Made by a program: the position numbers and the translations under genes. DNA of 64,000 bases from Bacteroidales bacterium (GTDB lineage Bacteria; Bacteroidota; Bacteroidia; Bacteroidales; UBA4417), in contig JBBRYZ010000001.1 of NCBI GenBank assembly GCA_038237165.1, positions 30,199 through 94,198 on the forward strand, in the 5' to 3' direction. This document shows, piece after piece, positions 23,991 through 32,281 of this stretch (its first letter is position 1; each line of letters begins with the position of its first letter). A model generated the notes under the pieces. The model was not told where the DNA came from and ran no database searches. It saw nothing but the letters and a program-made list of their open reading frames with translations.

Positions 23991-24455
23991 TTATCCTCGC
24001 GAAAACATTTTAGTCAGTCTTGTTTGCATTTCCTCTGCACTTACATCTTCTATATGGGTTGTAATCATCCATTTATATCCGAAAGGATCCATCACTTGTC
24101 CAACGCGGTCGCCATAAAATTCATCTTTCACAGGCGTTATTATTTTTGCTCCTGCTTCAATTGCTTTCTGAAATGATTTGTCAACATCTGCTACATATAA
24201 TCCAAAAGTCATAGGATTACCACCAAGTGTTTGAGGACTTTTCGTTCCCCAATCAGGATTTTCCTCAGCCATCATCAATAATGAACCTTCGATTTCCAGT
24301 TCTGCGTGTCCAATAGTTCCATTGGGCATAAGTAACCGGAGTTTTTCTTTTGCATCAAATGCTTTTTTGTAAAATTCAATTGCTTCGCTACAACCTTTAA
24401 TATTTATGTAAGCATTTAAGGTATTTGCTCCCTGGTAAATGTGTGCAGTTTTCAT
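23991..24455 (-). CDS. VOC (glyoxalase/bleomycin-resistance, PhnB-like) family protein
   Basis: 154-aa ORF. AIEFYKKAF, the HAELEI segment and FYGDR.G...DPFG..W are typical of PhnB-like VOC proteins. Confidence 0.75.
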   Translation of the reverse strand: MKTAHIYQGANTLNAYINIKGCSEAIEFYKKAFDAKEKLRLLMPNGTIGHAELEIEGSLLMMAEENPDWGTKSPQTLGGNPMTFGLYVADVDKSFQKAIEAGAKIITPVKDEFYGDRVGQVMDPFGYKWMITTHIEDVSAEEMQTRLTKMFSRG

Positions 24456-24620
24456 ATTTGTGTTTTTAAAATTATTTGCCTGAATTTACAATTAGTGTGA
24501 TTAGTCGTGAACACTATGTTTTGGTATCGGAACTATTTTAGCAACTAAAAATACTGCCGGTAACAGAATCACTAAAGCGCCATTTTGCCAAACTGATGTC
24601 AGGCGTTCGTTGTTTTCTGC

Positions 24621-25058
24621 TTATACTTTTCCGTTATATTTTGGGTCAAAATCCACAATCCATTCGATACCGTATTTGTCTCTGAACATCCCGAAATAGG
24701 AACCCCAGGGACTGTCGCCAATAGGCGCTTCAATTGTACCGCCTGCTGAAAGTCCTTTAAATAACTTGTCGGCTTCTTCACGACTTTCTGCGCTAACAGA
24801 TATTTTAGATCTGTTTTCATTTTCATTTACTACACCCATACTTTCCGGAACATCATTGCCCATTAAAACATTTTTGCCAATAGGCAAAGCAATGTGCATT
24901 ATTTTATTTGCATCATTTTTTGCTACCGGAAATTCAGGACTTGACATTTCTTTGAAACGTATAATCAGTGCGAACTCTCCGCCAAATACTGATTTGTAAA
25001 AATTGAATGCTTCTTCAGCATTTCCGTTAAAGTTAATGTAAGGATTGATGAGTGCCAT
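24621..25058 (-). CDS. VOC family protein (PhnB/YjdN-like)
   Basis: 145-aa ORF with PYINFNGNAEEAFNFYKSVFGG and a C-terminal F.DKYGI.W pattern. Confidence 0.75.
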   Translation of the reverse strand: MALINPYINFNGNAEEAFNFYKSVFGGEFALIIRFKEMSSPEFPVAKNDANKIMHIALPIGKNVLMGNDVPESMGVVNENENRSKISVSAESREEADKLFKGLSAGGTIEAPIGDSPWGSYFGMFRDKYGIEWIVDFDPKYNGKV

Positions 25059-25069
25059 AATTTTTGTTT

Positions 25070-25360
25070 TTAAGTTGTTTTTGTTAGTCTATATTTTTCA
25101 GGTTTGGATTTGGTTCGCTCAATAATCATTCTTGCTTCCAAATCAAGTTTTACGGTTTCGCCATACCATTGAACTCCTCCGTCAAAGCTGTCTTTTACTT
25201 TGGCATACAATTCTTCCATAAGTTCAATATGAGTTGGCTCAAGATAAGTTAAGATGAACAAAATGTTTTCTTTAATTACTTCATATTTTTTCAATAATAT
25301 CCGCTTATTCGTTTTGTCCGAAATTGGATGCATCGTTTGTATATATTCACTTTTCTTCAT
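25070..25360 (-). CDS. Hypothetical protein
   Basis: 96-aa ORF, tightly spaced with the VOC gene. No family recognised. Confidence 0.45.
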   Translation of the reverse strand: MKKSEYIQTMHPISDKTNKRILLKKYEVIKENILFILTYLEPTHIELMEELYAKVKDSFDGGVQWYGETVKLDLEARMIIERTKSKPEKYRLTKTT

Positions 25361-25885: not shown

Positions 25886-27576
25886 CGGTTAAGTGTTAGA
25901 ATTGTATATCTGTGTAGCTCCTTTTTTCTTATTAATTTCCGAAACCTACTGTTATATTATTTTACTTTTCAATTTCAATAAGCCTCAAGAGCTGTGCACC
26001 GACTGGAGCTCCAACGACTCCAGATGCATTATTGCCATCCACTATCTTTATCTCTTCCTCCGTTAACTCATATAACTCATAAACCATCTTGTCAATTTCC
26101 TTATCCGTATTATCAATCTGTGCCTTTATTTGCTGAGCTATGGCACATTCCTGCATAAAGTAAACTTCCCATTCCGCTTCCTCGCTAAAGCTGAGTTTTA
26201 CTTTCTTTTTGGTGAGCACTGTTATAAATTCTTTATAGGTAAGCAGGTACCAGTTTTGCAGTTTATTTTGCAATGGCAATGGAGCCAGCGGGGCATGCTC
26301 CGCTGTCTCCATTGTCGAAAAGAATTTGCGCTGGATGGTGCGCTGGAATTTGCCTGATACTTCCTGCAGTTGTTTGTTGAGGGAAAGCATTAGGTCGGCT
26401 TTTCCAATAAAAGGTTGTTGATTAAAAAGTGAAATTTCCTTGATAGGAAATTTCCTTAGATCAACTAAAATAATCTTCGGAAACAACTTTCTAACAGATT
26501 TAGCAGTATTTTTCATGAAATAGTATGATAGTAGGCTACTATTAATGATTGTTAGAATATATTTTAAAGATATATCTGAATTTTCCTTTTCCAATATTGC
26601 AATATTACTTCTGTTATATAAATACAATTCATCAGTGTAGGTGGAAATTAAACATTTTGGGTAATTCCTTGTGATCTCCTTAACTATAATTTTCTTTCCA
26701 TCAAAAAGATTAAATGTTCTTGGTTCTGCTAGGTTATTGCCATACTTCAAATACAAACCCGGCCAATTTGTAAAATAGCGACCGACATCCTTGCCATCTA
26801 AATAATTGTGTGTATTTTTCATCTAATTTAAAATTAGAATCATAAGGTCTATTAATTACATCTTCAGCTGTATGTATTGGATCACCTTTGCCTTTTTCAT
26901 ATGCTTGTAACCCTGCTTTTATTTCTACAAGATTATTTAAGAACTCAGAATTAACTGCTATTTTGTAATTCAATTCATCTGCTTCATCATCTAAAAATAC
27001 TTTAAATTCAAAACCTTGATTATTGCGGAATTCTTGCTGATTCTTAGAGTGCGAAAGGTAAAATTCATAACCATTATTCATAAATATATCAACCTTGTTA
27101 TCAATTTTAATGTTTTCATTTTCGGCTGTAAGAATCACAGTTTCCACATTAACACCTTCAAAAGAGAATCCTTTCAGATTTATAATTTGATTCAACTTAC
27201 AATTCTCAAGAAGAAAACTTCTTAAGTCTTCTCCTGAATAAACCATCAGCCAAGCATTCGGTATTATTAATCCAAATTTTCCTTTCACTTTTAGTAGATG
27301 CACTTTTAGTAGATGCACGGCCTTTTCTATGAATAATAAATATGTATTTAGTTGATATTTAGCAGATTCATAATTATCTATAAAAAACCTTTTTTCTACC
27401 ATATTAAAATTGTCTCTTGCAAAAACATACGGCGGATTTCCAACCACCACATCAAAGCCACCCTTATATTCAGTGCGGAAAGCATGCTCAACAGTGCAGT
27501 AGAAGTCTGCGATAAAGGAGCTTGCTCCTTTGAAAACGGAATCGGGCACATTGGCACTAGTACTCCTGTGCCCGAG

Positions 27577-28071
27577 TTCCGGCAAACCGTGCTTTATCCT
27601 GTTATTCTGTATGTAATTTATAGTATTGTTCAGTTGCTCTTCGGTGGTAATTTTTTTTTGTCCGAATTTCTGTGTCCACAGGTGATTTTGAGTAGCTCCT
27701 CTTCCATGCGCAGGAGCATGCTCCTGCTCCTGCATGTGCGCTGCCGAGGGAGCATGCTCCCTCGTTCCGCTCGTAGCGACGGGGATAGTCCTGCCCATGG
27801 CGATATTGCAGGCACGGGCGCTCATACTTTTTATCTTCTGCACTATAGGTACCAATTCCACATCTACGCATACCAACGCAAGGTGCATATGGTCGCTACA
27901 AATATTGTAGGCAAGTATATTCAGATTATCCTTTTTAACAATATCAGCAACAACAGTGGTTACTATTTCCTCCTCTTCGGCCGACAACCACACGGGTACT
28001 TCTAACTTCACGAAATTATCGAACATACGCTGCGAATACCTCGAATTATGTGTTGCAGTAGTAATATGCCA
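27577..28071 (-). mobile_element. IS200/RAYT-like HUH (Y1) transposase domain embedded in-frame in the RM ORF
   Basis: Residues WHITT...(HUH = H-M-H, codons 27883-27891)...HLWTQKF...NYIQNNRIKHGL (Tyr codon 27613-27615). The domain lies between the MTase segments EFPQVF and GGFDVVVGNPPY, with no stop codons and in the same frame. Confidence 0.7.
27710..27763. repeat. Pair of perfect 18-bp GC-rich palindromes (GCAGGAGCATGCTCCTGC and GAGGGAGCATGCTCCCTC)
   Basis: Read directly at 27710-27727 and 27746-27763. Related imperfect copies are at 27514-27531 and 26288-26303. Local GC is far above the surrounding AT-rich gene. Confidence 0.9.
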
Positions 28072-30337
28072 TGTCTTTTTTGCTTTTTCGACAAACACCT
28101 GTGGAAATTCCTTTTGCCAATTAAATGCTTTATAGCCGGACACAGAAGGATCGTCAATCAGCGAGTTGCCACATTTAATATTGTTATTCAGGTCGTTCAG
28201 CTTGCGGTTGGGCTGGGCGGTGCTTAGCCAGTGGGAGAGCTTGGCTATTTCGACACTTTCCTCGTTTATATCAACGCCAAACAAATTGTTTTCGAGTATG
28301 CTCTTTTCTGTATCGGTCAGCACCATGGCATCGCCGAAAAGTTTGGCCTGCAGTTCGTCAATAGTGCGGTGTTCGGTAATAAGGTAATCGAGCGCCTGGT
28401 TCATGAATGCCCCCGATCCGCTGGCCGGGGTCGCAGATGGTAAGCCACAAAAGCCAGTTGCGGTAAGTAGTAAGCTTATCGAATAAAGGCTGTATGGTTT
28501 TCTTTGTTCGTTTGCGATCGGTTATATAGTCTTCCTCATTCAGCTGCAGCTCTGCTTTTTTATCAGCACAAAGTTTGCCAACAGTATTATCAACAATATA
28601 CTTGGTAATGTATTTGGGCGTGTAAAACACACCGTCCTTTTTGCGCTTGGTCTTGGTTTTGTCAATTTCCTGCCCTTCGAGCTGTGCTTTTATTTCATCC
28701 AGTTCATTCAGCGAGTTTTCGAAAATATGTCCCAGGATATTTACATCTACTTCGATGTCGAAATCATATTCCGAAAGCTTCAGCGTATAACGGTAAAGCA
28801 ATTCGTCATCAATTTTCAAAGCATCCAACAATTCATCCGATTTAAACAAACCTCCGTTGTACGCGAATACATCGTAGCGTTTGCCTTTAAAGCCGGTATT
28901 AAGGTATTCGAAATACTTTTTAAAGCGGGCATAAAGCGCAATATCAACATCCTTGTCCTGCAAGTCGCGCCAATCGTTAAGTATCAGCCTTACCGAGTTA
29001 GGCGGCAACAGTTGCCTGTCCTCGGCAAAAAACAGGAAAAGAAAACGATCAAGTAATTTCTGCGATTTCTTGAATAGTGTCAGCGCATCGTTCTGAGTGT
29101 TAAGGGCCACCAGGTTCCGGTGCAGCTCGCGCTTGAAAAGCGAATAATCGTTGTAAAGATTTTTGGTAATGGCATCTTCGTGGCTTATAGATTCGTCCTT
29201 GATGCGCTTTGGAAGACCTTTGGCAATACTGTCGTACGACAGGCACAGCCACAGCAATTCAAAATCCTTTTCGTTAAGAGTAAACAGGTTAAATTCGAGA
29301 TGCTCGATGGCATTATCGATATAAAAACGGAGCTTCTCGAAATTGGAAGTTATAACATACACACAATCGGACTGGTTGTTCTTATAGCCGAAAGCCTGAT
29401 TTTCAATCTTGCTGAGATCGGTAGTTTCAGTTCCTTTCAGCTCTATAACTGCTATAACCACAGGAGCAATTGCCAATGCATGCTACTTTGCCAGTAGTAT
29501 TGCACCATCCGCCTTTTTACTGTCCTTTACATTTTTGTATTCAGTAGTAATGTTAAATCCAGGTGTCGGATTTTTAGTATAGCCCAGCACCGTAACAAAC
29601 AAGTCGATAAGGAATTCGCCCTGGTATTGCTCCTCCTTGCTATTGCGTATGTTTTCCTGTATGGCGAGATTATGAAAATGAGCCTTGAATTTAGCATAGG
29701 CAGCCGCAACCGTCTGCTTATCCATCGTTTTCTGATACTTACTGATTACTGAATTTTGAAAAAAGGACATATAGTTTGCCGGTTCGGAAAGTGCGTGAAT
29801 TAATGGGGATAAATTTAAGGGATATTTGGACTATAGTATACGGAATTTAGAATTGTTTTTATTTTTCCCGTTGTTAACCAACACCAATGCTTGTAAGGGT
29901 TACGATCCCGATAGCAAACGGGGCAAGCATCGCAAAGTTTAAAAAATTGACTCCTTCAGGATTTCTGAACTTATACCCTCTGGTAGGTATCGGCTTCAAA
30001 TTGACAACAAGCAAATATACAAACTTGTTGCATTTAATTACCTGTTATAAGTTTCTTAATCGATTTCCATAATCGCAGCCTAAGGATACCATTTATAGTC
30101 CGGAACACTCAGGACAGCAGTAGGCAATTCAATTCCAGCAAACTTAATTTTTAACGTATCACTAAGAATTCCATTTTCGAAACACAGTTTTGCACAAGGA
30201 TGTCATATTATCTGATGCCTTTTCAGATGCTGGTTCCAAAATAAGCAGCCTGATAAATCCGATGAACGAAAAATCTTTTTTTTACTTAAACCAACAGTAG
30301 AATTATCATTGTTGATTGGTATTACTGTATTCTCATT

Positions 30338-32281
30338 TTACCCACGCTCTTTGAACTTCTTTATCCCTTCATTCAGGAATTTTATATATCCCTCTATGCT
30401 TGAATCATAACCCTTTGGGGGTGTAAGAAGGTTTCCATCATGGTCGGTTAAAGCATAAAATGGTTGTGAATTGGTTTTGAAATGTGTGGTTTCAAAATCG
30501 CTCCATTTATTACCTATGGTTTTCACTTTGTTGTTAGTAATTTTAGAAGTGTATTGTTCGTTAACAGGCAATTCAGTTTTGTCATCAACATAGAGTGAAA
30601 TCAACACATAGTCATTGCTGAGCAATCCCAGTACTGTTTTATCGCTCCACACATTGTCTTCCATTTTGCGGCAATTAACGCAACTCCAGCCTGTGAAATC
30701 CAGTATTACCGGTCTATTTACTTTTATAGCGTAGGCTATCCCTTTATCATAATCGTGGAAACAATTCAGGTTATGAGGACAGTGAAATTCATTATCCGAA
30801 GTGGTTGCCACAGCAATTGTATTGTCAGAGGCAGGCGCACTTTGCAGATTCCAGCCTTCGGTATAAAACGAAGGAGGAGGAAAGCCGCTGATGAGTTTCA
30901 ATGGCGCTCCAAACATGCCGGGAATCAGGTACACAACAAAACCCAGTACTAAAATGCCTGACAACAAGCCGGGGATAGAGGTGTTTTTCTGTTCGCCATC
31001 GTGCGGAAGCCTTAATTTACCGAGCAGATAAAAGCCGAGTAATCCGAAAATTACAATCCATAAAGCTATAAATACTTCCCTGGTCAATATGCCCCAATGG
31101 TAAGCCAGATCGACGGAAGATAAGAATTTCAGCGCAAAGGCAAGTTCAATAAATCCAAGCACAACTTTTACCGAATTGAGCCATCCTCCAGATTTTGGAA
31201 GCGAATTGAGCCATCCCGGGAATGCAGCGAAAAGTGCAAATGGAAGTGCCAACGCCAGCGCAAAACCAAACATACCTATGGCAGGTCCAGCGACATCGCC
31301 GTTAACAGCTGCCTGAACCAAAAGACTTCCGATGATAGGTCCTGTACATGAGAATGATACCAGTGAAAGCGTGAATGCCATGAAAAAAATCCCGATCAAT
31401 CCACCTTTATCAGCTGCTTTATCCGAGGCATCCAGCCATTTGTGGGGAAGCGTAATTTCGAAAGCACCAAAAAATGAAACTGCGAAAACGACGAATATGA
31501 CGAAAAATGCCAGGTTCATAACGCCGTTGCTTGCCAGCGCATTTAAGGCATCAGGTCCAAGTGAAAGGGAAATGGCTAATCCGAGTGTAACATAAATTAC
31601 AATGATAGAAACGGCGTAGATTATCGCATTTCGTATGCCTTTGGCTTTCGTTTTGCTTTGTTTGGTAAAGTAACTTACCGTAAGCGGGAGCATAGGGAAT
31701 ACGCAGGGTGTGAGCAGCGCCAGAAGTCCACCAACAAAACCGGCAATAAAAATAGCCCATGAAGTTAAGCCCGCGCCCGCAGGTACTATAACCACGGGAG
31801 CAGAACTGATTTGTGCCAACTCCGGAGAGGCTTTTACGTTAATTGTAAATTCATTGGTTTCCGGAGGCAAGCACATTTCGTCGTTACAAACCATAAAAGT
31901 TACTTCGGCATTAACGGCAAAACTGTTATTATCTGAAACAGCTATTTTCTGAACAAATAAAGCCTCTTTTTCAAAATAGGAAACAGGCATATTCTGGTAG
32001 GCAGGTTCGGGATGGGTAAATGGTTTATCCTCCCGGGTACTGCCAACGATTTGGTATGATTGATTTGGTTTAAAGCTGAAAGCAGTTGCAACAGGTCCGT
32101 TTTTTATATTCTGCGTCTGGCTGTAAATGTGCCATCCTTTCTCGATATTTGCCCTGAAAGTAATAAGGGCGGTATCGGGCGAAGGTCGGGTAACCGATGT
32201 CTGCCATTTTACCGGTTCGTGTACCTGCGAATATGCAAGTACCGAAAACAGTAATAGAATTGATGTGATGAGTGCTTTCAT
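30338..32281 (-). CDS. dsbD: Thiol:disulfide interchange protein DsbD (CcdA-type membrane core + C-terminal thioredoxin domain)
   Basis: 647-aa ORF: signal peptide, N-terminal DsbD-alpha-like domain, a polytopic core with LTPCVFPMLP and SCTGPI motifs, and a C-terminal WCVNC thioredoxin fold. Confidence 0.88.
   Translation of the reverse strand: MKALITSILLLFSVLAYSQVHEPVKWQTSVTRPSPDTALITFRANIEKGWHIYSQTQNIKNGPVATAFSFKPNQSYQIVGSTREDKPFTHPEPAYQNMPVSYFEKEALFVQKIAVSDNNSFAVNAEVTFMVCNDEMCLPPETNEFTINVKASPELAQISSAPVVIVPAGAGLTSWAIFIAGFVGGLLALLTPCVFPMLPLTVSYFTKQSKTKAKGIRNAIIYAVSIIVIYVTLGLAISLSLGPDALNALASNGVMNLAFFVIFVVFAVSFFGAFEITLPHKWLDASDKAADKGGLIGIFFMAFTLSLVSFSCTGPIIGSLLVQAAVNGDVAGPAIGMFGFALALALPFALFAAFPGWLNSLPKSGGWLNSVKVVLGFIELAFALKFLSSVDLAYHWGILTREVFIALWIVIFGLLGFYLLGKLRLPHDGEQKNTSIPGLLSGILVLGFVVYLIPGMFGAPLKLISGFPPPSFYTEGWNLQSAPASDNTIAVATTSDNEFHCPHNLNCFHDYDKGIAYAIKVNRPVILDFTGWSCVNCRKMEDNVWSDKTVLGLLSNDYVLISLYVDDKTELPVNEQYTSKITNNKVKTIGNKWSDFETTHFKTNSQPFYALTDHDGNLLTPPKGYDSSIEGYIKFLNEGIKKFKERG

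What the first reader, a model, noticed from the sequence alone, without database searches (positions are those of the whole stretch)
27463..28089. HUH/Y1 (RAYT / IS200-like) transposase domain nested in-frame inside the methyltransferase core of a type IIG RM enzyme
In Eco57I-family type IIG enzymes, as I know them, the segment NIKCGNSLID...EFPxxF runs almost directly into GGFDVVxGNPPY (motif IV). Here about 210 codons separate the two.

The inserted residues carry the hallmarks of a Y1 HUH endonuclease:
- WHITTATHN near the start of the domain
- HUH = SDHMHLAL (codons 27883-27891)
- HLWTQKF
- the catalytic-Tyr helix NYIQNNRIKHGL (Tyr codon 27613-27615)

The insert is in the same orientation and frame as the host gene, has no stop codon and no in-frame start of its own. 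A simple IS insertion would bring its own stop. This therefore looks like a selected domain fusion (an ssDNA nicking/joining module grafted into a restriction-modification enzyme) or an unusual in-frame domestication. I know of no described RM or defence architecture with an HUH domain inside the MTase fold.
Basis: partly seen in the sequence, partly recalled or inferred. Interest (0 to 1): 0.85.

Follow-up and report, generated by a model that had tools for sequence, protein, structure and literature searches.

The report
Transposase domain nested inside restriction enzyme
A single-strand-DNA transposase domain sits in frame inside a restriction-modification enzyme gene; this copy is a dead gene, but intact versions occur in many Bacteroidota species and the design seems undescribed.

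Summary
Window 28089-27466 (minus strand) encodes a complete Y1/HUH domain: Pfam Y1_Tnp E=1e-10, HUH and Tyr intact, predicted fold closest to TnpAREP, ISDra2 and IS608 TnpA. It lies in frame between EFPQVF and GGFDVVVGNPPY (motif IV) of an MmeI/Eco57I-like type IIG gene.

It is not a one-off. A scan of species-representative genomes found 245 related loci, almost all Bacteroidota. In 54 of the best 80, the domain lies at the same junctions inside an uninterrupted 1046-1343-codon frame. The catalytic motifs were kept in all 52 genes parsed in that check, and core dN/dS is about 0.21.

Closest relatives of the host gene (75-81% identity) lack the insert, and others carry a different Y1 subtype. 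The three gene modules have decoupled histories, so the domain behaves as an optional, exchangeable cassette.

The genes are also studded, at fixed hot spots, with in-frame perfect palindromes (GCATGC apex). These belong to a dispersed, mostly intergenic REP-like family.

Best reading: a RAYT-like enzyme expressed as an internal domain of a restriction-modification enzyme. The window's own copy is a pseudogene (one stop, two frameshifts). I found no description of this architecture in the literature searched.

The parts
25962..29770 (-). Whole type IIG (MmeI/Eco57I-like) restriction-modification gene, now a pseudogene split into four reading-frame pieces
   Evidence: ORFs. tblastn of intact homologues P0057 and P0155 hits frames -1, -2 and -3 in succession. 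Pfam MmeI_hel, Eco57I, N6_Mtase and TaqI_C. PADLOC REase_MTase_IIG.
29483..29485 (-). In-frame TAG stop inside a decayed copy of the N-terminal hot-spot palindrome (caaagtagcatgcattg, 29490-29474)
   Evidence: Sequence. Comparison with the same loop in 50 homologues.
28425..28426 (-). +1 frameshift (extra G) inside MTase motif I (DP-A-S-GSGAF)
   Evidence: Sequence. Frame change between 28409 and 28428. Intact relatives read DPACGSGAF.
27466..28089 (-). Y1/HUH (RAYT-like) cassette, 208 codons, in frame, with no start or stop of its own
   Evidence: Pfam Y1_Tnp E=1.1e-10. NCBIfam REP_Tyr_transpos E=1.6e-12. AF2 model plus Foldseek match to 4ER8, 2XMA and 2VIC. Boundaries from the empty-site comparison.
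27883..27891 (-). HUH motif (His-Met-His in SDHMHLAL)
   Evidence: Sequence. DHxH present in all 52 intact homologues parsed. Invariant columns.
27613..27615 (-). Catalytic Tyr codon (NYIQNNRIKH helix)
   Evidence: Sequence. Y[IV]xxNR present in all 52 parsed homologues. Helix 150-166 in the model.
27745..27764 (.). Perfect 20-nt palindrome CGAGGGAGCATGCTCCCTCG in the loop between the HUH and Tyr motifs (read as REHAP)
   Evidence: I4. Family hot spot.
27705..27732 (.). Second GCATGC-apex palindrome (perfect core GCAGGAGCATGCTCCTGC, 27710-27727) in the same loop
   Evidence: I3.
27514..27531 (.). Hairpin AAAGGAGC-aa-GCTCCTTT in the C-terminal tail of the cassette (read as KGASSF), about 50 nt from the right junction
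   Evidence: I19. Same position as KGACSL/KGLQPL in homologues.
27542..27575 (.). 34-nt imperfect palindrome with an ACTAGT centre in the cassette tail
   Evidence: I2. Not followed up.
27427..27462 (-). MTase motif IV, GGFDVVVGNPPY, directly after the cassette
   Evidence: Invariant in 10 full-length homologues.
26400..27465 (-). Low-GC (29%) MTase C-half plus target-recognition module. The same module occurs without the cassette in P0205/L087.
26815..26819 (-). -1 frameshift in an A run (A5; A6 restores ...LDEKNTHNYLDGKDV...)
   Evidence: P0205 comparison.
26277..26314 (.). 38-nt imperfect palindrome with a GCATGC apex after the TaqI_C domain (read as AEHAPLAP), at the family's C-terminal hot spot
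   Evidence: I1. Hot spot at C-part residues 380-440. L088 has one at the same offset.

Best explanation
**What it is.** The insert is a RAYT-like (REP-associated) Y1/HUH single-strand DNA nuclease-ligase that lives inside a type IIG restriction-modification gene as an in-frame cassette.

**How it is made (inferred from sequence).** The cassette has no promoter, start or stop. It is translated as an internal domain of the RM polypeptide, looped out between strands beta3 and beta4 of the methyltransferase fold, just before motif IV. Conserved adaptor segments at both ends (xKxKKxWH... and ...HAFRxEY) let the host chain continue.

**What it acts on (inferred, not shown).** By analogy with TnpAREP, the domain binds and processes short GC-rich DNA hairpins of one cognate family: foot CAAGGG, apex GCATGC for this subtype. 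Copies of these hairpins sit at fixed, insertion-tolerant loops of its own host gene. Others are dispersed, mostly between genes, in other genomes.

**How it spreads.** The cassette moves between related RM genes as a module. The most likely route is recombination through the highly conserved flanks (NIKCGNSLIDDP...EFP on the left, GGFDVVIGNPPY on the right). The RM gene, which is itself horizontally mobile and hard to lose, serves as its expression platform and vehicle.

**In this window.** The carrier gene has died (one stop, two frameshifts). The cassette is still open, with its HUH and Tyr motifs intact.
For: **It is a Y1/HUH domain.**
- Pfam and NCBIfam hits, scoring higher on the RAYT model than on the IS200 model.
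- Foldseek top hit is TnpAREP bound to a REP hairpin, 4ER8, followed by ISDra2 and IS608 TnpA.

**The architecture is conserved and selected.**
- 245 loci in species-representative genomes.
- 54 of the best 80 loci are uninterrupted 1046-1343-codon frames with invariant junctions.
- At least 15 cluster representatives of 950 aa or more in the 1.84-billion-protein library.
- HUH and Tyr motifs in all 52 parsed genes.
- Nuclease, motif I, motif IV and the Y1 motifs are invariant in 10 diverse full-length proteins.
- Y1 core dN/dS has a median of 0.21.

**It is an optional, exchangeable cassette.**
- Y1-less relatives at 75-81% identity align across the junction.
- A different Y1 subtype sits in 78-83% identical hosts.
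- Spearman correlation of pairwise identity is 0.20 between the N part and Y1, and 0.05 between Y1 and the C part.
- Y1 dS is far below host dS in several pairs.
- Identity profiles break sharply at the right junction and at the Y1 loop.

**It is associated with REP-like palindromes.**
- GC-rich perfect hairpins occur at 2.6/kb in the cassette, 0.5/kb in the N part and 0.06/kb in 390 kb of flanks. 99 of the 143 in-gene hairpins have a GCATGC apex.
- GCATGC is 10 times more frequent in the genes than in the flanks, and 108 of 151 in-gene copies are extended palindromes.
- At one hot spot the palindromes are present, absent or decayed, and in different frames.
- Compensatory changes keep the stems perfect.
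- The apex changes with the Y1 subtype: CTGCAG/CTTCAG in L088.
- The exact 20-mer is dispersed and mostly intergenic in metagenomes.

**Precedent.** In-frame REP insertions between the HUH and Tyr motifs of RAYT genes are described for subclass 2.4 (PMC6006769).
Against: - No biochemical evidence links this domain to these hairpins.
- The domain scores below NCBI's trusted cut-off for RAYT (47.6 against 80 bits).
- The palindromes lack the GT[AG]G guide tetranucleotide of classical REPs.
- In this 64-kb window, and in 390 kb flanking 54 homologous genes, no cognate palindrome lies outside the gene. Dispersal in those genomes is therefore weak or absent.
- I could not show that the metagenome contigs carrying dispersed copies come from genomes that encode the nested enzyme.
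- Recombination alone can explain the cassette's patchy distribution, so transposase-driven mobility of the cassette itself is not demonstrated.
- Strong conservation of an in-frame, catalytically intact domain fits equally well with a function that serves the RM enzyme.
Confidence: 0.5

Rival explanations
1. Functional fusion. The HUH domain is a working part of the restriction-modification enzyme. It might nick or covalently capture single-stranded or hairpin DNA, so that the enzyme also acts on ssDNA phages, incoming conjugative strands or replication intermediates. Alternatively it might regulate the enzyme. The palindromes in the gene would then be secondary.
For: - The chimeric frame is intact in 54 of the best 80 loci, across species pairs down to 41% Y1 identity.
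- All catalytic motifs of the nuclease, the MTase and Y1 are invariant together.
- dN/dS is 0.21.
- Adaptor motifs that occur only in nested forms (xKxKKxWH, HAFRxEY) are conserved across Y1 subtypes and even in a host with a different N-terminus, P0112.
Against: - The closest relatives do without the domain, so it is dispensable for the RM enzyme.
- The domain's cognate hairpins lie in its own gene and in intergenic DNA rather than in any known invader.
- No relative was found on viral contigs, and I saw no linkage to other defence genes.
- Deletion derivatives keep Y1 and lose the RM parts. This suggests Y1 is maintained for its own sake.
Confidence: 0.25
2. Gene-diversification or switching device. 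The Y1 domain uses the hairpins at domain boundaries of its own gene to excise, insert or exchange segments. This would change specificity (MTase C-half plus TRD) or turn the enzyme on and off.
For: - Hairpin hot spots sit at domain boundaries about 1 kb apart: the D...ExK loop, just before the MTase domain, inside Y1, and after the TRD.
- Identity profiles break at the Y1 loop and the right junction.
- N, Y1 and C modules have uncoupled histories.
- In the window, a 29%-GC C module lies between the cassette and the C hot-spot palindrome.
- Several genomes carry two copies.
Against: - Y1-less relatives swap C-halves at the same motif IV junction, so the exchange does not need Y1.
- C-part palindromes are rare (8 in 54 genes).
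- No silent cassettes or inverted partial copies were seen next to the genes.
- There is no canonical left-end or right-end arrangement around any segment.
Confidence: 0.15
3. Ordinary debris. An IS200-like element happened to land in an RM gene that was already dying, and the open frame is chance.
For: The host gene in this window has one stop and two frameshifts. With three hits in 3.8 kb, a 0.6-kb stretch escaping damage is not surprising (my estimate, about 0.6).
Against: - The same in-frame junctions occur in dozens of intact genes from different species.
- The cassette has no start, stop or terminal hairpins of its own.
- It is under purifying selection.
Confidence: 0.03

Closest known systems
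RAYT / TnpAREP with REP-BIME sequences (E. coli TnpAREP, PDB 4ER8; Nunvar 2010; Ton-Hoang 2012, PMC3333891)
   Same: - Y1/HUH fold with one catalytic Tyr; this is the best structural match.
- It is also the best NCBIfam model.
- The gene is surrounded by cognate short GC-rich palindromes that also occur dispersed between genes.
- The palindrome type co-varies with the enzyme subtype.
   Different: - It is not a free-standing gene. It is translated as an internal domain of a 1,200-aa RM enzyme.
- The palindromes nearest to it are inside coding sequence.
- The palindromes have no GT[AG]G foot.
- The score is below the family's trusted cut-off.
- The Tyr motif is YIxNNRxKH, not YIxxNP.
RAYT subclass 2.4 / group 4 (Quentin et al. 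2018, PMC6006769)
   Same: - REP copies are inserted in frame inside the enzyme's own gene between the HUH and Tyr motifs, giving a loop of highly variable length.
- It is found in Bacteroidetes.
   Different: - Motifs differ: NH[IFV]H / WQ / YIxNNP there, against DHxH / WT / YIxNNR here.
- Those genes are standalone.
- That study discarded long 'fusion' proteins, so the nested form was not examined.
IS200/IS605 TnpA (IS608, ISDra2)
   Same: - Same fold and HUH plus Tyr chemistry.
- The DHxH and W[TS] motifs resemble subclass 1.1.
   Different: - No subterminal left and right hairpins bracket the unit.
- No start or stop of its own, and no tnpB.
- No multiple identical copies.
- Scores 25 bits against a cut-off of 55 for NF033573.
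MmeI / Eco57I-like type IIG restriction-modification enzymes (PADLOC PDLC03609; Pfam MmeI_N, MmeI_hel, MmeI_Mtase, Eco57I, TaqI_C)
   Same: The host protein is a regular member. The Y1-less relative P0197 matches the 1066-position model end to end.
   Different: A 170-260-aa foreign domain is inserted before motif IV, and palindrome-encoded peptides are inserted in several loops.
Rickettsia palindromic elements (selfish palindromes inserted in frame in protein-coding genes; recalled from Ogata et al. 2000, not checked here)
   Same: Short palindromic repeats are tolerated in frame in surface loops of proteins.
   Different: - Here the repeats are only 16-32 nt long.
- They are linked to a candidate mobilising enzyme encoded in the same gene.
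- Within coding DNA they are concentrated in that one gene family.
Inteins / homing elements
   Same: A selfish-looking module sits in frame at a highly conserved catalytic motif of a host protein. Filled and empty alleles both occur among close relatives.
   Different: - No Hint or splicing motifs (no such Pfam hit).
- The module stays in the mature protein.
- The chemistry is HUH, not protein splicing.

Membership tests
Y1/HUH transposase superfamily (Pfam PF01797 Y1_Tnp) | Profile score above the curated cut-off | tested here: met
   42.2 bits against 23, E=1.1e-10.
Y1/HUH transposase superfamily (Pfam PF01797 Y1_Tnp) | HUH metal-binding motif and a catalytic Tyr on the C-terminal helix | tested here: met
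   DHMH at 27894-27883 and Tyr at 27615-27613. Both motifs are present in all 52 parsed homologues.
Y1/HUH transposase superfamily (Pfam PF01797 Y1_Tnp) | Ferredoxin-like beta-sheet plus helices fold of TnpA | tested here: met
   AF2 model with pLDDT 75, and 90 or more in the core. Foldseek matches 4ER8, 2XMA, 2XM3 and 2VIC at E about 1e-4 with probability 1.00.
RAYT (REP-associated tyrosine transposase, NCBIfam NF047646) | Score above the curated equivalog cut-off | tested here: not met
   47.6 bits against a cut-off of 80. It is still the best-scoring model.
RAYT (REP-associated tyrosine transposase, NCBIfam NF047646) | Gene flanked by cognate REP palindromes that are also dispersed in the genome | tested here: inconclusive
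   Cognate palindromes are strongly enriched in and around the cassette. The same 20-mer is dispersed in metagenome contigs. None lies outside the gene in this window or in 390 kb of homologous flanks. Co-occurrence within one genome was not shown.
RAYT (REP-associated tyrosine transposase, NCBIfam NF047646) | REP carries a 5' GT[AG]G guide tetranucleotide | tested here: not met
   The foot is (A)CAAGGG...CCCTTG(T).
IS200/IS605 insertion sequence | Autonomous unit: tnpA with its own start and stop between subterminal left and right hairpins | tested here: not met
   No start or stop. The hairpins lie inside the coding region, not at both ends. NF033573 scores 25 bits against 55.
Type IIG restriction-modification enzyme (MmeI/Eco57I-like) | Single polypeptide with an N-terminal PD-ExK nuclease, a gamma-class N6-adenine MTase (motif I DPACGSG, motif IV NPPY) and a C-terminal TRD | tested here: met
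   Met for the family: (PDLC03609, 1114 bits for P0155). In the window all parts are recognisable.
Type IIG restriction-modification enzyme (MmeI/Eco57I-like) | Uninterrupted reading frame in this window | tested here: not met
   TAG at 29485-29483, +1 at 28425/28426, -1 at 26819-26815.
BREX PglX methyltransferase (a name some databases give to relatives) | Score above the NCBIfam cut-off | tested here: not met
   NF033452 scores 99-130 bits against a cut-off of 500. The best PADLOC model is the type IIG enzyme, not PglX.
Intein | Hint-domain splicing motifs at the insert boundaries | tested here: not met
   No Hint or intein Pfam hit. The boundaries read VF-x-EKxKK and HAFRTEY-K-GG.

The most novel reading that the evidence does not exclude
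The nested HUH domain is catalytically active within the restriction-modification enzyme. If so, this family is a new class of composite element: a RAYT that uses a defence gene as its body and vehicle, or conversely an RM enzyme that has gained hairpin or ssDNA nicking and joining. Either way it would give a tractable, single-gene system in which the long-unknown activity of RAYTs on their palindromes can be tested in vivo.
Probability: 0.3. Interest if true: 0.9.

Novelty: new variant of a known kind. Interest (0 to 1): 0.78.

Why it matters
RAYTs and their REP palindromes are widespread, but what the enzymes do in cells, and how the palindromes spread, is still unsettled. Here a RAYT-like enzyme is welded in frame into the catalytic fold of a defence enzyme, in 245 loci from species-representative genomes.

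- **For transposon biology:** a selfish or domesticated nuclease can persist with no gene of its own, expressed as a passenger domain.
- **For RM enzymology and annotation:** such proteins are currently labelled 'transposase', 'N-6 DNA methylase' or even 'BREX PglX'.
- **For protein engineering:** the beta3-beta4 loop before motif IV, and four other loops, tolerate large insertions.
- **For experiments:** a cultured carrier is available, Tangfeifania diversioriginum DSM 27063 (locus L026).

Tried and rejected
1. **'The palindromes are private to the gene.'** I believed this: none in the rest of the window, none in 390 kb of flanks. The metagenome scan rejected it. Only 29 of 134 exact copies lie in or beside RM-Y1 homology, and most of the others are intergenic.
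2. **'Standalone copies prove transposition of the cassette.'** Rejected. L005 keeps a decayed GGFDVVVGNPP remnant. L017 and P0004 keep the RM start codon and first residues fused to Y1. L001 keeps EFPNVF and GGFDVVIGNPPY. All are deletion derivatives.
3. **'The GC jump at the cassette marks a foreign insertion.'** The cassette's GC excess comes from the palindrome-rich loop. A low-GC C-half is a general feature of the family, seen in 49 of 54 genes.
4. **'Y1 drives exchange of the specificity half.'** Weakened, because Y1-less relatives swap at the same junction.
5. **Single-sequence search against PDB sequences.** Gave only marginal hits (E=0.05). The fold search was needed.
6. **The full-length AF2 model.** Too poor for domain geometry (10-sequence alignment, pLDDT 63, TRD unresolved).
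7. **Viral contigs.** They hold no relative.
8. **Five literature searches.** None found a description of the nested architecture.
9. **DNA-level conservation at the junctions.** It shows conserved synonymous sites in GGFDVVIGNPPY. This cannot separate a cis-acting site from codon bias or gene conversion.


Full report
**1. What is in the window**

On the minus strand, between 29770 and 25962, lies one large gene of the MmeI/Eco57I-like type IIG restriction-modification kind, cut into four reading-frame pieces:
- 29770-29483 (95 aa)
- 29476-28358 (372 aa, MmeI_hel)
- 28404-26734 (556 aa, Eco57I + N6_Mtase + Y1_Tnp)
- 26822-25962 (286 aa, TaqI_C)

Intact homologues align to these pieces in frames -1, -2 and -3 in turn. 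There are three breaks:
- An in-frame TAG at 29485-29483.
- An extra G at 28425/28426 inside motif I. The sequence reads gac ccc g gcc agc gga tcg ggg gca ttc, that is DP-A-S-GSGAF.
- An A5 run at 26819-26815 where A6 would restore ...LDEKNTHNYLDGKDV....

The other genes of the window are long and intact. The gene is therefore most probably a real pseudogene rather than an assembly artefact.

**2.

The third piece reads ...NWQKEFPQVF-V-EKAKKTWHITTATHNSRYSQRMFDN...SDHMHLAL...HLWTQKF...NYIQNNRIKHGL...EHAFRTEY-K-GGFDVVVGNPPY.
- The insert alone scores 42.2 bits on Pfam Y1_Tnp (cut-off 23, E=1.1e-10), and the Eco57I profile is split around it.
- NCBIfam ranks the RAYT model first (47.6 bits) and IS200 second (25 bits). 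Both scores are below their trusted cut-offs.
- An AlphaFold model has mean pLDDT 75, with the core at 90 or above. The only disordered parts are the loop between the HUH and Tyr motifs and two short stretches. Its best matches in the PDB are TnpAREP bound to a REP hairpin (4ER8) and the ISDra2, IS608 and IS200 transposases (E about 1e-4, probability 1.00).

**3. It is a family, not an accident**
- A full HMMER search of 1.84 billion cluster representatives gave 336 relatives. At least 15 of them are 950-1273 aa long, with the Y1 match at residues about 350-720 (about 550-720 in most).
- A scan of one genome per species gave 245 loci, almost all Bacteroidota: Prolixibacteraceae, other Bacteroidales and Marinilabiliales, and Flavobacteriaceae. 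One cultured strain is among them, Tangfeifania diversioriginum DSM 27063.
- In 54 of the best 80 loci the Y1 match lies in an uninterrupted frame of 1046-1343 codons. Most of the rest are cut by contig ends.
- The junctions are nearly invariant: W..EFPx[VI]F-x | xKxKKxWH[IV]T ... HAFRxEY-x | GGFDVVIGNPPY.
- DHxH and Y[IV]xxNR are present in all 52 genes parsed in that check.
- In ten full-length proteins only 32-51% identical to the reference sequence of the alignment, the Y1 motifs, MTase motif I and motif IV are all invariant, and the nuclease ExK residues are kept in at least nine of the ten.
- dN/dS of the Y1 core has a median of 0.21 over 154 pairs, against 0.11 for the N-terminal half.

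Translation through the cassette, and the amino-acid sequence of the cassette, are therefore both under selection.

**4. The cassette is optional and exchangeable**
- I searched with the window's host sequence with the cassette removed. The closest relatives (75-81% identity) align straight across the junction and read EFPxVF-[S/A/K][K/R]-GGFDV. Examples are P0197, P0198, P0205 and P0215.
- P0205 has the same C-terminal half as the window without the cassette.
- Other relatives that are 78-83% identical in the host part (P0208, P0211, P0253) carry a clearly different Y1 subtype at the same site.
- Pairwise identities of the N-half, the cassette and the C-half are almost uncorrelated: Spearman 0.20 (N against Y1) and 0.05 (Y1 against C). 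There are pairs such as N 95% / Y1 66%, N 88% / Y1 49% and N 58% / Y1 81%.
- In several pairs the cassette's synonymous divergence is far lower than that of the host's N-half.
- Identity profiles break sharply at the right junction and inside the Y1 loop.
- Y1-less relatives also swap C-halves at motif IV. The cassette therefore sits at a general recombination joint of this family. Recombination through the conserved flanks is enough to explain its spread. Transposition of the cassette itself is not shown.
- The few 'standalone' copies are deletion derivatives that keep scraps of the RM gene or its start codon.

**5. The palindromes**
- The window holds GGAGCATGCTCC (one mismatch or none) four times, all inside this gene, against 0.11 expected. 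With flanks they are a perfect 20-mer (27745-27764), a 28-nt near-perfect one (27705-27732), an 8-bp hairpin (27514-27531) and a 38-nt imperfect one (26277-26314).
- In the 54 intact homologues, GC-rich perfect hairpins occur at 2.6/kb in the cassette, 0.5/kb in the N-half, 0.1/kb in the C-half and 0.06/kb in 390 kb of flanks. 99 of the 143 in-gene hairpins have a GCATGC apex.
- They sit at five hot spots: between the D and ExK of the nuclease, just before KRKKDGxFYTP, in the loop between the HUH and Tyr motifs, in the cassette's C-terminal tail, and after the TRD. The window's copies fall on these same spots. Its TAG stop lies inside a decayed copy at the first hot spot.
- At that hot spot, 28 genes have the plain 8-residue loop. 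About 22 have insertions that are perfect, duplicated or decayed palindromes, read in different frames (REHAPL against KGACSL).
- Related genes keep the stems perfect through double changes: CAGCCGGGCATGCCCGGCTG against CAGCCGAGCATGCTCGGCTG.
- A gene with the other Y1 subtype has four palindromes at the same four places. They share the foot but have a different apex, CAAGGGGCT[G/T]CAGCCCCTTG.
- An exact-match scan of metagenome contigs for CAAGGGAGCATGCTCCCTTG then showed that this is a dispersed repeat. Only 29 copies lie in or next to RM-Y1 homology. Most of the others are intergenic, and some form tandem arrays. My earlier idea that the palindromes are private to the gene was therefore wrong. 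They behave like a REP family.
- In-frame REP copies between the HUH and Tyr motifs of a RAYT gene have a precedent in RAYT subclass 2.4 (PMC6006769). That survey discarded long 'fusion' proteins.

**6. Most likely mechanism**

Shown:
- A complete, conserved, selected Y1/HUH domain is translated as an internal domain of a type IIG enzyme.
- It is an optional module.
- It is tightly associated with one palindrome family whose apex follows the Y1 subtype.

Inferred:
- The domain is a RAYT-like enzyme that binds and processes these hairpins in single-stranded DNA.
- It depends on the RM gene for expression and for horizontal spread.
- Palindromes persist in the host gene only in loops that tolerate them.

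I put this reading at about 0.5. The rivals are:
- a real gain of function for the RM enzyme (0.25)
- a device that rearranges or switches the gene (0.15)
- mere debris (0.03), which the comparative data contradict

**7. Comparison and novelty**
- The host is a regular member of the type IIG family (PADLOC PDLC03609). It is not BREX PglX.
- The insert is a member of the Y1/HUH superfamily by profile, motifs and fold.
- It works like a RAYT but fails two membership tests: the trusted cut-off, and the GT[AG]G foot of the palindromes.
- It is not an IS200/IS605 element: it has no gene boundaries or end hairpins of its own.
- Five full-text searches found no description of a Y1 domain nested in an RM enzyme.
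- The proteins are in public databases under misleading names such as 'transposase', 'N-6 DNA methylase' and 'PglX'.

I rate it a new variant of known kinds, of high interest. The copy in this window is a decayed example.

Noticed in passing
window 27289-27318: A perfect 15-nt tandem duplication (gtgcatctactaaaa x2) gives VHLLK-VHLLK in the MTase C-half. The Y1-less relative P0205 has no such repeat.
   Followed up: partly
window 26400-27465 versus 25962-26399 and 28090-29770: The MTase C-half plus TRD is 29% GC, while the gene's tail and N-half are 43%. The C-half is lower in GC than the N-half in 49 of 54 homologues. This fits frequent import of specificity modules.
   Followed up: partly
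window 27542-27575: A 34-nt imperfect palindrome with an ACTAGT centre lies in the cassette tail. It is unlike the GCATGC family (I2).
   Followed up: no
window 27481-27488 and the right-junction consensus of 54 loci: The conserved adaptor motif (E)HAF is encoded by GAGCATGCT, the same half-site as the palindrome apex read as EHAP. The adaptor may descend from a half palindrome, or this may be coincidence.
   Followed up: no
L088 607-620, 748-769, 5113-5126, 16355-16368 and 17889-18350: A second, unrelated palindrome family (CCGTTCCGGAACGG, four copies in 22 kb) lies near a canonical standalone 153-aa IS200-like Y1 gene. This is on the same contig as a nested subtype-B gene.
   Followed up: no
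L009 515-711 and 12261-12276: Another palindrome family (TCCCGAGTACTCGGGA and variants) occurs in the flanks of a nested gene.
   Followed up: no
L147 840-1081: A tandem array of five exact copies of the 20-nt palindrome, the first four at a 44-nt period, lies in intergenic DNA.
   Followed up: no
L136 (REP at residue 40 of a 431-codon frame) and L146 (residue 135): These are possible in-frame insertions of the same palindrome in unrelated proteins. The L136 frame looks like an aminoacyl-tRNA synthetase, judged by eye only.
   Followed up: no
L014, L023, L029, L043, L064, P0001: Several homologous genes are truncated 16-80 codons after the right junction. Breakage may be frequent just downstream of motif IV.
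   Followed up: no
L017 and P0004: These deletion derivatives fuse the RM gene's start codon and first residues (MSLFQ.. / MPLFQKSV..) directly to the Y1 cassette. The Y1 part stays expressible after the RM part is lost.
   Followed up: partly
window 23991-25360 and 30338-32281: The neighbours are ordinary: two glyoxalase/VOC-family genes and a DUF6958 gene downstream, and a DsbD-like thiol:disulfide interchange protein upstream. No other defence or mobility gene lies next to the pseudogene.
   Followed up: partly
database names: Relatives are named 'transposase', 'N-6 DNA methylase', 'type I restriction-modification system DNA methylase subunit' or 'BREX-1 PglX'. The PglX name is not supported by the NCBIfam cut-off.
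   Followed up: partly
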